Positions 769 through 6,413 are shown, counted from the first letter of the stretch. The stretch: DNA of 8,688 bases from Escherichia coli (GCF_003334335.1 NZ_QOWQ01000068.1); one strand, 5' to 3'. Numbers and translations are program-made. The notes: generated by a model from the sequence alone, not told the origin.

Positions 769-1329
769 ATGAAGAAGATAATATTATTAGCCATGATTAT
801 TGGTTCTTTAACAGGTTGCGCTAGTGTGCCACCATTGAATTTTTCAACACCTAACGTGGGAGTTAGCCAGAAAAAAATAGATGCTGAAATTAAGTCATTA
901 ACGGTATCACTTGCTCGTCCAGATGAGCAGAAAGGGGATATCACTGCTGGTATGGAGGCTATAACTCCAATTTGGCGTGAATCTTTGCAGGAAGCACTCG
1001 ACCGAATGACTATTTTTCGTGATAGTTCACCAAATACGGTTAGCTTAAATGTTAAAGTGTTGGCTCTTGACGTTCCTGCTTTTGGTGTTTCAATGACAAC
1101 TAAAGCAATTGCAAGGTATGAAATAATCAACCGTGCGAATGGTGATATTATATATACGCAGGATATTGAGTCTACCGGTACTGTTCCAGCCAGTTACGCA
1201 TTCTACGGTATTGTTCGAGCACGCGAATCTGTTAATCGCGCGGTGCAAAACAACATAACGCAGTTCTTGCAAGCATTAGAAAGTGTTGATCTTTCTCGTC
1301 CAATGTTTCCTGTTAGGGTAGCTAAATGA
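769..1329 (+). CDS. Orphan outer-membrane lipoprotein, 186 aa
   Basis: The signal peptide carries the lipobox LTG|C17, with Ala at +2. An AAGG lies 8 nt upstream of the ATG. The stop overlaps the next start (ATGA). The mature part looks like a mixed alpha/beta domain. Its architecture loosely recalls YajG-type lipoproteins (tentative, from memory). Confidence 0.8.
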   Translation: MKKIILLAMIIGSLTGCASVPPLNFSTPNVGVSQKKIDAEIKSLTVSLARPDEQKGDITAGMEAITPIWRESLQEALDRMTIFRDSSPNTVSLNVKVLALDVPAFGVSMTTKAIARYEIINRANGDIIYTQDIESTGTVPASYAFYGIVRARESVNRAVQNNITQFLQALESVDLSRPMFPVRVAK

Positions 1330-1778
1330 AGCGATTATTCGTAATTGCTCCACTCTTAGTGTTGGTTGGATGCGCACAAAATATATCGCCAAATAGTTAT
1401 TCTGTTGGCTCTGTGGGCATGGTTAATCGAACTATCGCTGGTACAGTTATTAGTGCTAGGGGGGTTGATATCAGTGGGACTTCCGCGTTAGGCGGGACTG
1501 CTGGGGCTGCCGTGGGGGCAACCGCTGGTTCTGCGCTTGGTGGGGGAGTTCGTTCTAATATCGTTGGTGCCGTTGGTGGTGCAGTCATTGGTGGTATTGC
1601 CGGGGCAGCAATCGAATCTTCAGCAACAAAACAAACAGGCATGGAATATGTTGTCGAAACTGAGAATGGGAATTTAATGACCATTGTTCAAGGCAAAGAT
1701 CCGTTATTTACTCAAGGAAGTAAGGTCCTTGTTTTATACGGAAACCCTTCTCGCATAATAACAGACCCGCGTCACTAA
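1326..1778 (+). CDS. SlyB/Pcp-family glycine-zipper outer-membrane lipoprotein (17-kDa-antigen type), 150 aa
   Basis: Lipobox LVG|C16. A Gly/Ala zipper spans residues about 51-96 (GTSALGGTAGAAVGATAGSALGGG..GAVGGAVIGGIAGAAI). The C-terminal beta segment GMEYVVETENGNLMTIVQGK..KVLVLYGNPSRIITDPR is collinear with E. coli SlyB (..GVELEIRKDDGNTIMVVQKQ..RVVLASNGSQVTVSPR). An AGGG lies 7 nt before the ATG. Confidence 0.85.
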   Translation: MKRLFVIAPLLVLVGCAQNISPNSYSVGSVGMVNRTIAGTVISARGVDISGTSALGGTAGAAVGATAGSALGGGVRSNIVGAVGGAVIGGIAGAAIESSATKQTGMEYVVETENGNLMTIVQGKDPLFTQGSKVLVLYGNPSRIITDPRH

Positions 1779-3458: not shown

Positions 3459-3842
3459 ATGCGTGATATTCAGATGGTTCTTGAGCGTTGGGGAGCGTGG
3501 GCGGCTAATAATCATGAAGATGTGACCTGGTCGTCCATTGCCGCCGGTTTTAAGGGATTAATTACTTCAAAAGTAAAATCTCGCCCGCAATGTTGTGACG
3601 ATGACGCGATGATCATTTGCGGGTGCATGGCCCGTCTGAAAAAGAACAACAGCGATTTGCACGATTTATTAGTAGATTATTATGTAGTCGGTATGACATT
3701 CATGTCACTGGCAGGTAAGCATTGCTGCTCTGATGGTTATATCGGGAAAAGGTTACAGAAGGCTGAGGGTATAATTGAAGGGATGTTAATGGCATTAGAT
3801 ATCCGGTTAGAGATGGATATCGTTGTTAATAACTCTAATTAA
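3459..3842 (+). CDS. quuD: Q-family late-gene antiterminator (DLP12 QuuD), 127 aa
   Basis: The ATG at 3459 is preceded by GGAG 7 nt upstream, so the track's TTG at 3456 is not needed. [18 protein letters not shown].. matches remembered QuuD. It sits between the nin genes and the lysis region. Confidence 0.9.
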
Positions 3843-3863: not shown

Positions 3864-3893
3864 ATTATTAAAAATGGGGCGTTGAGACGCCCC
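3864..3893 (-). terminator. Rho-independent terminator of nmpC/ipeX
   Basis: A GGGGCG/CGCCCC stem (3876-3881 / 3888-3893) has a 6-nt loop. On the minus strand it is followed by AUUUUUAAUAAUUUU. On the plus strand it is followed by an A-run, so it works only for leftward transcription. Confidence 0.55.
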
Positions 3894-4030
3894 CAAAAAT
3901 AAAGGGTAATATATAACAGAAGGTTTATATAGTTAGAAGCAAGGTTGTGCTCCTAAAGGAAGTGGCTTGAGGGAGCCACTTATATGTTGGGGAGGCAAAG
4001 CCTCCCGCAACATATCTTTTAGTAATCAAA
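3864..4030 (-). ncRNA. ipeX: ipeX-type regulatory 3'UTR/sRNA of the porin transcript
   Basis: About 165 nt of untranslated minus-strand sequence lies between the nmpC stop (4031) and a terminator at 3864-3893. It holds two further strong hairpins: AGTGGCT/AGCCACT at 3961-3980 and ATATGTTGGGGAGGC/GCCTCCCGCAACATAT at about 3982-4014. IpeX was described as lying in exactly this interval downstream of nmpC/lc. The boundaries are approximate. Confidence 0.55.
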
Positions 4031-5113
4031 TTAGAACTGGTAAACCATACCTACAGCAACGATATCATCGGTAGCAACGCCAGATGCTTTCGTGAAATCG
4101 CTCTTATCAATCAGGTTGATTTTGTAATCAACAAAAGTGGACATATTTTTGTTGAAGTAATAGGTTGCACCTACATCAATATATTCAACCAGGTCCTGAT
4201 CACCCCACGCACCCAAGTCTTTTCCTTTAGATTGCAGGTAAGCAACGGACGGACGCAGACCGAAGTCGAACTGATATTGTGCAACTACTTCGAAGTTTTG
4301 TGCTTTGTTGGCAATATGGTTATTACCAAAAACAGTCATGTTCTGGGTTTCAGAATAGGTGGTAGCCAGATAGATGTTGTTCGCATCATATTTCAGACCA
4401 GCTGCCCATACTTCAGCATTTTGACCAGATGCATTCAGGCTGTTGTTACCGTAGATAACCTGATTATTAGTGCGGTCAGATTTAGCATAGGTTGCACCTA
4501 CACCGAATCCTTCATACTCATAAGTAGTGGAGAAACCGAAACCATCACCATTAGCTTCAGTTACGTCAGTGCGGTCATTTTTACCCTGATACTGAGCAGC
4601 AAAGTTCAGACCATCAACCAGACCAAAGAAGTCATTGTTACGATAAGTTGCAACACCTGTGGTGCGACCAGTCATGAATACATCTGTTTGGGTCCAGGTA
4701 TCGCCACCGAATTCTGGCAGAACGTCGGTCCATGCACCAATATCGTATGCTACACCGTAGTTACGGCCATAATCGATGGAGCCGTAGTCACCGAATTTCA
4801 GGCCAGCGAAGGCAAGACGGGTTTTATCTTTGGAGGAACCTTGAGATTCAGCGCGGTTGCCTTTGAATTCATATTCCCACTGACCGAAACCAGTCAGTTG
4901 ATCGTTGATTTGGGTTTCACCTTTGAAGCCAAGACGGGCATAAGTAGTATCACCATCATCTGCATCATTAGAGGAGAAGTAGTGCTTAGCATTAACTTTC
5001 CCGTACAGATCCAGCTTGTTACTGTCTTTATTATAAATTTCAGCTGCCTGAGCAGACATCGCCATCAGTACTGATGCAGCTACAGCAGAAATTGCCACTG
5101 TTAATTTTTTCAT
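4031..5113 (-). CDS. nmpC: OmpC/PhoE-family general porin NmpC (Lc-type), intact, 360 aa precursor
   Basis: The start at 5113 ([23 protein letters not shown]|AEIYNK..) has a signal peptide and an AAGGG SD. The sequence has porin hallmarks (..LDLYGKV.., ..GFGQWEYEF.., C-terminal ..VGMVYQF). The 20 extra N-terminal residues in the track ORF lack a signal-peptide context. Confidence 0.95.
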
Positions 5114-5540
5114 CGTGAGCCCTTTTTTTGAACTATTATTAAAAAATGATGTCACTGCGCGATAAATATTCATCTAATCAATGTGATTATTTCAAGATGT
5201 AAGTTTTGGTTTCTCATTTGATTTGTGAAGTAGATCTCTATTTTTATCTGAACTTTTTCTATCGAATCCTATTCATGGCTCTTGGCTGAATAAAAATAAA
5301 TCTATTAGCCAATTTATATTAATGGCTGTTATTTATAAGTGCTCTATAATTTGAAGATTCAATTTAAACCAGCTAAAAATAACGCTGGAAATTATTTGTT
5401 GGTTATTTGTTGAGATTTGCTTATGTATTTGTAGTGGTGTTTTCAATACTCGGTAGCATTCTCGCAAATATCATTTAGTGGTTTACGTACGTAAAAAATT
5501 GGTTATGCTGTTAAGAGTGGTTACTTCGTCACACAGCTTA

Positions 5541-5572
5541 AACCCGCCGTCGAGCGGGTTTTTCCATTTTTT
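5541..5572 (+). terminator. Rho-independent terminator upstream of the lysis genes (tR'-like, expected target of Q)
   Basis: An AACCCGC/GCGGGTT stem (5541-5547 / 5554-5560) is followed by TTTCCATTTTTT. No plus-strand gene precedes it. This fits the short-leader-plus-terminator arrangement known from lambda pR'-tR'. Confidence 0.55.
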
Positions 5573-5700
5573 GAGTCTCGATATTAGCTGATAACCCAAT
5601 ACCTGAGTTATTCACTGACTCCGAGTCTGTTACGTTTCTGCTTTTTTGCGATACGTTGTATTCCCTCAATTTACACCCGCTTTGTCTGCGAGGTGGGGTT

Positions 5701-5916
5701 ATGAAATCCATGGATAAGTTAACAACGGGTGTCGCCTATGGCACCTCAGCAGGTAGTGCCGGTTACTGGTTTTTACAGCTGCTCGATAAAGTCACGCCCT
5801 CACAGTGGGCAGCAATAGGTGTGCTGGGTAGCCTGGTATTTGGCCTGCTGACGTACCTGACAAACCTTTATTTCAAGATTAAAGAAGATAAGCGCAAGGC
5901 TGCGAGAGGTGAATAA
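5701..5916 (+). CDS. essD: Phage-21-type pinholin (S21-like), 71 aa with dual-start motif
   Basis: The ATG at 5701 follows [54 protein letters not shown] matches remembered EssD/S21. The second Met at codon 4 gives the classic holin/antiholin pair. Confidence 0.9.
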
Positions 5917-6413
5917 TGCCTCCATCATTACGAAAAGCCGTTGCTGCTGCTATTGGTGGCGGAGCAATTGCTATAGCATCAGTGTTAATTACTGGCCCAA
6001 GTGGTAACGATGGTCTGGAAGGTGTCAGCTACGTACCATACAAAGATATCGTTGGCGTATGGACTGTATGTCACGGACACACCGGAAAAGACATCATGCT
6101 CGGTAAAACGTATACCAAAGCAGAATGCAAAGCACTCTTGAATAAAGACCTTGCCACTGTCGCCAGACAAATTAACCCGTACATCAAAGTCGATATACCG
6201 GAAACAACGCGCGGCGCTCTTTACTCATTCGTTTACAACGTGGGTGCTGGCAATTTCAGAACATCGACGCTTCTTCGCAAAATAAACCAGGGCGATATCA
6301 AAGGCGCATGTGATCAGCTACGTCGCTGGACATATGCTGGCGGTAAGCAATGGAAAGGTCTCATGACTCGTCGTGAGATTGAGCGTGAAATCTGTTTGTG
6401 GGGTCAGCAATGA
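5916..6413 (+). CDS. rrrD: SAR (signal-anchor-release) endolysin, T4-lysozyme/R21 family, 165 aa
   Basis: TAATG overlap with the holin. The N-terminal Gly/Ala-rich weakly hydrophobic segment ([18 protein letters not shown]) is a SAR domain. E35, D44 and T50 sit at the R21 catalytic-triad positions. Confidence 0.95.

What the first reader, a model, noticed from the sequence alone, without database searches (positions are those of the whole stretch)
3864..5113. Uninterrupted nmpC (Lc-type) porin with its ipeX 3'UTR
In K-12 the DLP12 porin gene is broken by IS5. Here the ORF is complete, with a signal peptide, porin motifs and a C-terminal YQF. Downstream lies about 165 nt of highly structured UTR ending in a leftward-only terminator. 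That is the interval reported to hold ipeX, which lowers OmpC and OmpF expression. This prophage can therefore plausibly both supply a new porin and repress the host porins, swapping the receptor surface.
Basis: partly seen in the sequence, partly recalled or inferred. Interest (0 to 1): 0.55.

Follow-up and report, generated by a model that had tools for sequence, protein, structure and literature searches.

The report
Intact prophage porin with IpeX tail
This is an unbroken copy of the well-known lambdoid-prophage porin gene (NmpC/Lc type) with its known regulatory RNA tail, IpeX; it is ordinary, except that the tail turns out to be strongly complementary to the ribosome-binding sites of the host porin genes ompC and ompF.

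Summary
Window 4031-5113 (- strand) is an intact 360-aa classical porin. It is 90% identical to PA-2 Lc and to reconstructed K-12 NmpC. The 166 nt after it (3868-4033, -) are about 97% identical to the annotated K-12 ipeX (574365-574531). This stretch folds into five hairpins (z = -8.1) and ends in a terminator that works on the - strand only. The cassette lies leftward between Q and the lysis genes of a DLP12-like prophage. It is common: the UTR is found in 2510 of 5426 complete E. coli genomes and in 36 phage records.

One lead appears to be new. IpeX nt 106-134 (window 3925-3897) can form 24 base pairs with ompC -31..-7, over the SD and the MicC site. The total energy is -15.8 kcal/mol, against -16.8 for MicC. 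It can also pair with ompF -14..+10, the MicF site. These two rank 1st and 2nd among 192 E. coli translation-start regions. This segment is the invariant part of 30 ipeX variants. The accessible literature reports no such complementarity, so this is a testable prediction, not a demonstrated mechanism.

The parts
4031..5113 (-). Porin gene of the NmpC/Lc type: 360 codons plus stop, uninterrupted.
   Evidence: ORF and translation. Pfam Porin_1 full length, E = 3e-153. NCBIfam OmpC subfamily above its cut-off. 90.1% aa identity to PA-2 Lc and to reconstructed K-12 NmpC, 60% to OmpC, 58% to OmpF.
5045..5113 (-). Signal peptide, 23 aa: [23 protein letters not shown], followed by AEIYNKD.
   Evidence: Identical to the sig_peptide annotated in the PA-2 lc record J02580.
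3868..4033 (-). ipeX homologue: 166 nt running from the porin stop codon through the terminator U-run. It is the 3'UTR of the porin mRNA.
   Evidence: 5 differences in 167 nt from K-12. K-12 ipeX coordinates 574365-574531 R, 167 nt. Fold z = -8.1. No Rfam match at E<=1 anywhere in the window.
3982..4015 (-). Hairpin 1 of IpeX. It has a G+C-rich top, GGGAGGC-UUU-GCCUCCC.
   Evidence: MFE and consensus fold. It holds the only compensatory change seen: the closing C-G becomes U-A in E. albertii.
3960..3981 (-). Hairpin 2 of IpeX.
   Evidence: Variation is confined to the loop side of the stem.
3933..3956 (-). Hairpin 3 of IpeX.
   Evidence: The window's G (A in K-12) keeps the pair as G-U.
3910..3931 (-). 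Hairpin 4 of IpeX: seven A-U pairs with the loop ACCUUCUG.
   Evidence: All natural changes are on the 5' arm and break pairs. The loop and the 3' arm are invariant in 30 distinct variants.
3897..3925 (-). Predicted antisense segment, AACCUUCUGUUAUAUAUUACCCUUUAUUU. It is complementary to the ompC and ompF ribosome-binding regions.
   Evidence: Duplex predictions and rankings. Unique in the window. It overlaps the region of IpeX reported accessible in vivo, nt 128-142.
3870..3893 (-). Intrinsic terminator of the porin transcript: stem GGGGCGU/ACGCCCC, loop CUCA, then AUUUUU. It is effective leftward only.
   Evidence: Scan. Natural variation sits almost entirely in the loop.
5114..5480 (-). Porin promoter and regulatory region, AT-rich. 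The CRP site annotated in the PA-2 record maps to about 5221-5241.
   Evidence: 98% identical to the PA-2 upstream region. CRP features of J02580. PnmpC is an active sigma-70 promoter in K-12 (PMC11677980). The transcription start was not mapped here.
3459..3842 (+). Q antiterminator gene (QuuD type), convergent with the porin gene. It marks the left border of the cassette.
   Evidence: Pfam Phage_antitermQ, E = 3.5e-53. RefSeq name quuD in identical genomes.

Best explanation
The window holds a DLP12-like lambdoid prophage. Its leftward gene cassette between Q and the lysis genes encodes an intact NmpC/Lc-type general porin and, as that gene's 3'UTR, the known small RNA IpeX.

Most likely mechanism:
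1. The porin promoter transcribes leftward in the lysogen. It is sigma-70 dependent with CRP sites, and it does not depend on the phage late programme.
2. Transcription stops at the one-way terminator, 26 nt short of the Q stop codon.
3. The mRNA yields a secreted 16-strand trimeric porin. The residues that differ from Lc/NmpC cluster at about 180-270 and in the C-terminal quarter. I take these to be mostly outer-loop residues, but I did not map them onto a structure.
4. The 166-nt UTR acts as IpeX, either within the mRNA or after cleavage in the single-stranded A/U-rich stretch just after the stop codon. Five hairpins protect it.
5. Inferred here: the loop and 3' arm of hairpin 4 plus the following linker (window 3925-3897) pair with ompC mRNA at -31..-7 and with ompF mRNA at -14..+10. 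That covers both Shine-Dalgarno sequences, blocks initiation, and lowers OmpC and OmpF. The phage porin's own mRNA is not targeted.

The net effect is replacement of host porins by the phage porin.

Steps 1-4 rest on near-identity to the studied PA-2/DLP12 systems. Step 5 is a computational prediction. I give about 0.9 to the identification and about 0.6 to step 5.
For: Identification:
- Intact full-length porin.
- Position and orientation identical to DLP12 and PA-2.
- UTR 97% identical to annotated K-12 ipeX.
- From Q to Rz the window is 95-100% identical to DLP12 per 100-nt bin (98-100% in most bins), apart from the 3' two-thirds of the porin ORF, an indel-containing bin at 5600-5699 and the alignment end.
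- Reviews state that ipeX is made from the porin promoter within the porin transcript, is processed, and represses OmpC and OmpF.
- PnmpC is active in K-12.

Pairing:
- IpeX with ompC: 15 contiguous pairs, extended to 24. Hybrid energy -26.1 and total -15.8 kcal/mol after opening costs.
- IpeX with ompF: hybrid -18.2, total -10.1.
- The same pipeline recovers the known MicC-ompC (-16.8) and MicF-ompF (-11.3) sites, and the IpeX sites overlap them.
- ompC and ompF rank 1st and 2nd of 192 translation-start regions. The 189 decoys average +4.4 with sd 4.5, and the best decoy scores -8.7. ompA, reported unaffected, scores +0.5.
- None of 66,632 windows across 400 kb of K-12 sequence reaches the ompC hybrid energy; the minimum is -21.0.
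- The segment is invariant in 30 distinct variants except for two single-sequence changes in the linker, and hairpin-4 changes fall only on the opposite arm.
- It overlaps the in-vivo accessible region published for IpeX.
- The ompC leader is at least 99% identical in 5368 of 5426 E. coli genomes.
- The window's own porin mRNA scores +4.9.
Against: - No expression data exist for this prophage. From memory (Prilipov et al. 1998, not readable here), intact nmpC in E. coli B is quiescent under laboratory conditions.
- As I recall its abstract, the primary IpeX paper (Castillo-Keller et al. 2006, not held) reports no complementarity to ompC and suggests a mechanism other than simple pairing. [quoted passage not shown]
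- ompC and ompF are paralogues with similar start regions, so their two top ranks are not independent.
- Energies come from a home-made accessibility-corrected scan, not a validated target predictor.
- In a longer 3' context of the mRNA the cost of opening the segment rises from 3.7 to 7.6 kcal/mol.
- Conservation of the segment is only suggestive, because the whole UTR varies little.
- Covariation support for the fold is minimal: one compensatory pair and a covariation term of -0.04.
Confidence: 0.85

Rival explanations
1. IpeX works as reported but not by antisense pairing. The structured RNA would titrate or recruit a protein (a sponge for an RNA-binding protein or a nuclease adaptor), and the complementarity found here would be incidental.
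For: The review wording says the mechanism does not rely only on complementarity. IpeX is described as Hfq-independent. Four stable hairpins upstream of the segment have no assigned role. The published target scan that used the accessible region did not list ompC or ompF.
Against: The ompC duplex is as strong as the proven MicC one and sits on the same site. Nothing in 400 kb of background sequence matches it. The two known targets rank 1st and 2nd of 192, and the known non-target ompA does not score.
Confidence: 0.25
2. The porin cassette is silent in this lysogen. The ORF and UTR are intact but not expressed enough to change the outer membrane, so no porin swap occurs in practice.
For: From memory: nmpC of E. 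coli B is intact yet quiescent, and lc is under catabolite repression. CRP sites are annotated in the PA-2 record and conserved here. ipeX levels vary little among clinical isolates and did not explain OmpC levels.
Against: The same promoter is active enough in K-12 to drive IS5 transposase. ipeX RNA is detected in K-12 transcriptomes and in clinical isolates. From memory, PA-2 lysogens do make Lc and lose OmpC.
Confidence: 0.3
3. The structured intergenic stretch is only a transcription insulator between the convergent Q and porin genes. Its conservation would reflect recent common descent, not selection for a regulatory RNA.
For: The flanks are as conserved as the UTR, 98-100% against DLP12. 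There is almost no covariation.
Against: A single terminator hairpin would be enough, yet four more hairpins and a 29-nt antisense segment are kept, including in E. albertii at 88% identity. Published genetics assign porin repression to this DNA. The UTR stays with the porin where Q is absent.
Confidence: 0.1
4. The region downstream of Q holds the + strand late promoter, Q-utilisation site and first terminator. The hairpins would belong to that late leader, not to the porin UTR.
For: In phage 1H12, whose Q gene is about 90% identical, a promoter-like TTGCTG-17-TAATGT and a terminator follow Q directly. Hairpin 1 read on the + strand is followed by CTTTT.
Against: No + strand promoter-like site lies between 3843 and 5656. 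Nothing in the window resembles the 1H12 leader. The UTR travels with the porin where Q is missing. A block of about 55 nt ending in a + strand terminator (5511-5566) is shared with phages SfII and cdtI immediately upstream of their lysis genes. That fits a late leader lying after the porin cassette, not before it.
Confidence: 0.05

Closest known systems
PA-2 lc and K-12 DLP12 nmpC porin genes (GenBank J02580; b0553)
   Same: Same slot and orientation between Q and S/R/Rz. Identical signal peptide and identical first 180 or so residues. 98% identical promoter region and about 97% identical 3'UTR.
   Different: Overall protein identity is 90.1%, with two small deletions (360 aa against 365). 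The substitutions cluster in residues about 180-270 and the C-terminal quarter, so the surface probably differs. Unlike K-12, there is no IS5.
IpeX small RNA of DLP12 (MG1655 574365-574531, 167 nt)
   Same: Same position, from the stop codon to the terminator. Same five hairpins. 162 of 167 positions are identical, and the predicted antisense segment is identical.
   Different: Four substitutions and one 1-nt deletion, all outside the antisense segment. Here it is contiguous with an intact porin ORF, as in PA-2. In K-12, IS5 separates it from most of the gene.
MicC and MicF (chromosomal antisense RNAs for ompC and ompF)
   Same: The predicted target sites overlap: MicC on ompC -31..-14 and MicF on ompF -12..+8. 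The predicted energies are comparable. Like IpeX, both are encoded next to a porin gene.
   Different: There is no significant sequence similarity to either. IpeX is a 3'UTR element, not a free-standing gene. Its antisense segment is internal (a hairpin loop plus linker), not at the 5' end. Its effect on ompC is reported to be Hfq-independent.
Chromosomal OmpD-like porins of Salmonella, Citrobacter and Enterobacter
   Same: They are the closest non-Escherichia relatives of the protein, at 74-79% identity.
   Different: None carries an ipeX-like 3'UTR. Among 80 loci from species-representative genomes, only E. coli and E. albertii do.

Membership tests
NmpC/Lc prophage porins (general bacterial porin family, Pfam PF00267) | A complete 16-strand porin domain. 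| tested here: met
   Porin_1 match 1-337 of 337, E = 3.1e-153. Full-length matches to solved OmpC, OmpF, PhoE and OmpK37.
NmpC/Lc prophage porins (general bacterial porin family, Pfam PF00267) | An N-terminal signal peptide and a C-terminal aromatic residue (the ...YQF sorting signal). | tested here: met
   The first 23 aa are identical to the annotated Lc signal peptide. The C-terminus is VGMVYQF.
NmpC/Lc prophage porins (general bacterial porin family, Pfam PF00267) | Encoded leftward between Q and the lysis genes of a lambdoid prophage. | tested here: met
   Q at 3459-3842 (+), porin at 4031-5113 (-), holin at 5656-5916, endolysin at 5916-6413, and Rz, Bor. Same order as DLP12.
NmpC/Lc prophage porins (general bacterial porin family, Pfam PF00267) | Close sequence relationship to Lc/NmpC rather than to OmpC, OmpF or PhoE. 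| tested here: met
   90.1% to Lc and NmpC, 94% to the CFT073 allele, 99% to the yedK-adjacent allele, 60% to OmpC, 58% to OmpF.
NmpC/Lc prophage porins (general bacterial porin family, Pfam PF00267) | Produced in the lysogen and forms pores. | not testable with these tools
   Needs outer-membrane protein profiles or conductance measurements.
IpeX sRNA | Lies between the nmpC/lc stop codon and the Rho-independent terminator. | tested here: met
   Window 3868-4033. Terminator at 3893-3876 plus a U-run. K-12 coordinates.
IpeX sRNA | Sequence identity with the K-12/PA-2 element. | tested here: met
   162 of 167 positions identical to K-12 and PA-2.
IpeX sRNA | A stable RNA of about 167 nt accumulates, processed from the porin transcript. 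| not testable with these tools
   Stated in a review. Needs Northern blot or 3'/5' RACE in this strain.
IpeX sRNA | Lowers OmpC and OmpF but not OmpA. | tested here: inconclusive
   Prediction only. Strong duplexes with the ompC and ompF start regions and none with ompA. No experiment.
IpeX sRNA | A match to a curated RNA family model. | not testable with these tools
   No Rfam match at E<=1 anywhere in the window. The ~97%-identical ipeX homologue scores nothing, so Rfam appears to hold no IpeX model; I did not check the family list directly.
MicC/MicF-type antisense sRNAs (works-like comparison) | Complementarity to the translation-initiation region of a porin mRNA. | tested here: met
   24 bp with ompC -31..-7. 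A 10-bp core plus flanks with ompF -14..+10.
MicC/MicF-type antisense sRNAs (works-like comparison) | Sequence homology to micC or micF. | tested here: not met
   Local alignment scores fall within the shuffle range: 211 and 357 of 2000 shuffles score as well. IpeX is therefore not a member of these families.
MicC/MicF-type antisense sRNAs (works-like comparison) | An Hfq-binding 3' module: terminator hairpin with a long U tail preceded by an A/U-rich single strand. | tested here: inconclusive
   An A/U-rich linker, UUUAUUUUU, precedes the terminator, but the tail has only five U. The effect on ompC is reported to be Hfq-independent.

The most novel reading that the evidence does not exclude
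IpeX is an ordinary antisense RNA after all. One 29-nt segment (the hairpin-4 loop, its 3' arm and the linker) would carry overlapping anti-ompC and anti-ompF sequences. These occupy the same mRNA sites as the chromosomal MicC and MicF, without detectable sequence homology to them. In that case the phage blocks translation of both host porins directly. The long ompC duplex would explain why that effect needs no Hfq, and the shorter ompF duplex why that one does.
Probability: 0.55. Interest if true: 0.45.

Novelty: already known. Interest (0 to 1): 0.25.

Why it matters
As a genome feature it matters little. Intact NmpC/Lc-type porins with ipeX are common in E. coli prophages, and the porin-swap idea has been in print for PA-2 for decades.

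Its value is as a reminder that nearly half of complete E. coli genomes carry a phage cassette able to change porin composition. That bears on phage and colicin receptors and on antibiotic entry.

The predicted pairing would matter modestly more. The mechanism of IpeX has been left open since 2006, and the duplexes proposed here can be tested directly with a few point mutations.

Tried and rejected
- Rfam scan of the whole window at E<=1 gave nothing, which suggests Rfam has no IpeX model.
- The primary papers (Castillo-Keller 2006; Prilipov 1998) are not in the library. Their content is cited from memory or through reviews.
- Covariation test of the fold on 30 distinct variants: only one compensatory pair and a covariation term of -0.04. 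The structure therefore rests on folding energy alone.
- Unrestricted RNAduplex on the full-length RNAs gave meaningless long duplexes. I replaced it with windowed duplexes plus opening energies. My first script timed out.
- Homology of IpeX to MicC or MicF: not significant.
- A + strand late promoter inside the UTR: no promoter-like site, and no similarity to the late leader of phage 1H12 despite its about 90% identical Q gene.
- ipeX-like UTRs downstream of OmpD-like porins in other genera: none found.
- Small ORFs in the UTR: only 26-35 aa, with no support. The 280-aa + strand ORF at 4232-5074 is a shadow of the porin gene on the opposite strand.
- I first labelled the yedK-adjacent allele 'yedS'. 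The locus is beside yedF-yedK, and I withdraw the yedS label.
- The count of genomes with at least 80% coverage cannot be read as a count of intact genes, because IS-split copies are joined into one place (see H1).

Full report
**What is there**

On the - strand an ORF runs from ATG 5113 to TAA 4033-4031 and encodes 360 aa. The ORF listing extends it to an upstream in-frame ATG at 5173. PA-2 Lc and K-12 NmpC both begin at the MKKLTV methionine, which has AAAGGG 8 nt upstream.

The protein matches Pfam Porin_1 over the whole model (1-337 of 337, E = 3e-153). It passes the NCBIfam OmpC-subfamily cut-off (518 against 484 bits). It aligns end to end with solved OmpK37, OmpC, PhoE and OmpF structures. 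The first 23 residues equal the annotated Lc signal peptide, and the protein ends in VYQF.

The neighbours are those of a DLP12-like lambdoid prophage: NinB-like, YbcO, RusA, then Q (3459-3842, +), the porin (-), P21-type holin, endolysin, Rz, Bor (-) and DUF1398. In K-12 the same gene is split by IS5.

**The downstream region**

The 166 nt from the stop codon to about 3868 fold into five hairpins. MFE is -61.8 kcal/mol against -31.3 +/- 3.7 for shuffles, so z = -8.1. The last hairpin (3893-3876) is a G+C-rich stem followed by AUUUUU. The terminator scan finds it on the - strand only, and on the + strand the stem is followed by CAAAAATAAA.

The stretch differs at 5 of 167 positions from the K-12 nmpC-quuD intergenic region and from the sequence after PA-2 lc. 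A published supplementary table gives ipeX as MG1655 574365-574531, reverse strand, 167 nt. That is exactly from the U of the nmpC stop codon to the terminator.

**How common it is**

The 1.5-kb query of porin plus flanks matches 4069 of 5426 complete E. coli genomes. Seventy-one records match at 99% or better. It also matches 36 phage records, including PA-2 and a 434 derivative that picked up the K-12 region.

The UTR alone is present in 2510 genomes at 90-100% identity. Among 80 porin relatives from species-representative genomes, only E. coli and E. albertii carry it. The OmpD-like orthologues of Salmonella, Citrobacter and Enterobacter (74-79% protein identity) do not.

**Anatomy of the cassette**

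Compared with DLP12 with IS5 removed, the window is 95-100% identical per 100-nt bin from Q to Rz (98-100% in most bins). The exceptions are 4030-4750, the 3' two-thirds of the porin ORF, which drops to 70-92%, an indel-containing bin at 5600-5699 (83%) and the alignment end. Identity returns to 98-100% at the stop codon.

At the protein level this gives 90.1% identity to Lc and NmpC. The changes and two small deletions cluster in residues about 180-270 and the C-terminal quarter. I take these to be mostly outer-loop residues but did not map them onto a structure. The allele is 99% identical to one that lies beside yedK, without Q, in two other strains. There the UTR is still attached to the porin, so the UTR belongs to the porin, not to Q.

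Phage 1H12 has an about 90% identical Q gene, but a lipocalin gene occupies the same slot in the same orientation. The Q-S interval is evidently a general landing place for leftward accessory genes.

**Where the late promoter is**

I checked whether the hairpins could belong to a + strand late leader. In 1H12 a promoter-like TTGCTG-17-TAATGT and a terminator follow Q directly. The window has nothing similar and no + strand promoter-like site before the holin.

Instead, a block of about 55 nt (5511-5566) is conserved. It ends in a + strand terminator (5540-5561, then TTTTTCCATTTTTT). It lies just upstream of the lysis genes in DLP12, SfII and cdtI phages, in each case after leftward genes. This is the likeliest late leader. 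Late transcription therefore probably does not cross the porin or ipeX. This is inference from conservation only.

**What is known**

Reviews state four things about ipeX:
- It is a 167-nt RNA of DLP12.
- It is transcribed from the phage porin promoter as part of the porin transcript and then processed.
- It represses OmpC and OmpF.
- Its action does not rely only on complementarity, and it is described as Hfq-independent.

The nmpC promoter is active in K-12, and ipeX RNA is measured in K-12 and in clinical isolates. The primary paper is not in the library. As I recall its abstract, the lc 3'UTR causes the loss of OmpC in PA-2 lysogens, no complementarity to ompC was found, and the ompC effect, unlike the ompF effect, did not need Hfq.

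**A lead that goes further**

I scanned IpeX against mRNA start regions using windowed duplex energies plus the cost of opening both partners. The accessible part of IpeX is hairpin 4 (seven A-U pairs, loop ACCUUCUG) and the following linker.

ompC:
- IpeX nt 106-120 (AACCUUCUGUUAUAU) forms 15 contiguous pairs with ompC -21..-7 (AUAUAACAGAGGGUU), covering the Shine-Dalgarno sequence.
- Nt 126-134 (CCUUUAUUU) pair with -31..-23.
- Together that is 24 pairs, with hybrid energy -26.1 and total -15.8 kcal/mol.

ompF:
- Nt 108-130 pair with -14..+10, with the core UAUUACCCU against AGGGUAAUA.
- Hybrid energy is -18.2 and total -10.1 kcal/mol.

Controls:
- The same procedure recovers the known MicC-ompC (-16.8; ompC -31..-14) and MicF-ompF (-11.3; ompF -12..+8) duplexes. 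The IpeX sites overlap them.
- Among 192 translation-start regions, ompC and ompF rank first and second. The 189 K-12 decoys average +4.4 with sd 4.5, and the best decoy scores -8.7. ompA scores +0.5, ompN +3.1 and the window's own porin +4.9.
- In 66,632 windows covering 400 kb of K-12 sequence the best hybrid energy is -21.0. Nothing approaches the ompC value.

Other support:
- The segment is unique in the window.
- It overlaps the region of IpeX reported as accessible in vivo, nt 128-142.
- It is invariant in 30 distinct natural variants, apart from two single-sequence changes in the linker. The changes in hairpin 4 all fall on the other arm and weaken the hairpin.
- The ompC leader is at least 99% identical in 5368 of 5426 genomes.

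Caveats:
- ompC and ompF are paralogues, so the two ranks are not independent.
- The scoring is my own and not a validated predictor.
- Opening costs rise in a longer mRNA context.
- The UTR varies too little for conservation to be decisive.
- IpeX shows no significant sequence similarity to MicC or MicF. It would work like them without being related to them.

The prediction fits the reported Hfq pattern: a long duplex for ompC and a short one for ompF. It remains a prediction.

**Verdict**

The feature is a common, already described prophage cassette. Its interest is low as a discovery. It is raised slightly by a specific, cheaply testable hypothesis for how IpeX acts.

Noticed in passing
window 5484-5571 (+), core 5511-5566: A conserved block of about 55 nt, GTTAAGAGTGGTTACTTCGYCACACAGCTTAAACCCGCCGTCGAGCGGGTTTTT, ends in a + strand intrinsic terminator just upstream of the holin gene. 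It is shared with DLP12, Shigella phage SfII and phage cdtI, always after leftward genes. It is a candidate late-gene leader and first terminator (the target of Q). The second CRP site annotated in the PA-2 record (about 5516-5536) falls inside it.
   Followed up: partly
window 4030-4750 (-): A mosaic patch. Most of the Q-to-Rz stretch is 98-100% identical to K-12 DLP12, but the 3' two-thirds of the porin ORF is only 70-92% identical. Identity returns abruptly at the stop codon. This suggests replacement or diversification of the divergent part of the porin alone.
   Followed up: partly
L006 and L007 (E. coli DLL7555 and 2015C-4136CT1), locus positions 1416-2700: A 99% identical porin with its ipeX-like UTR sits beside yedF-yedK. 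It is followed by ybcM, ybcL and emrE, with no Q or lysis genes. This is a stranded remnant of the cassette at another chromosomal site.
   Followed up: partly
L004 (phage 1H12) 3538-4218: The Q gene is about 90% identical, but the slot after it holds a leftward lipocalin (Blc) gene instead of a porin. A promoter-like site and a terminator follow Q directly. The Q-S interval takes different leftward accessory genes.
   Followed up: partly
L001 (K-12 DLP12) intD start region, -28..-7: The IpeX antisense segment also gives a strong hybrid with the ribosome-binding region of the prophage's own integrase gene (hybrid -24.2, total -8.2 kcal/mol). That is the fourth best of 192 start regions in the accessibility-corrected scan and the best by hybrid energy alone.
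   Followed up: no
window 769-1778 (+): Two adjacent lipoprotein-like ORFs of 186 aa and 150 aa. Both start with a lipobox-type signal, and the second has a weak glycine-zipper match. They lie upstream of the nin-region genes, at about the position where K-12 DLP12 has ybcL and ybcM. No Pfam family passes its threshold.
   Followed up: no
window 4232-5074 (+): A 280-aa ORF lies on the strand opposite the porin gene. It is a shadow ORF. A similar 'ORF1' or 'hypothetical protein' is annotated in the PA-2 and 434B records.
   Followed up: partly
H1 (NZ_AP045180.1) and L008 (E. coli JB2): Other strains show independent disruptions of the same porin gene. One has an IS1 insertion. The other has an IS5-like element that removed most of the ORF and the first 124 nt of the UTR. 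This gene is hit by insertion sequences repeatedly.
   Followed up: no
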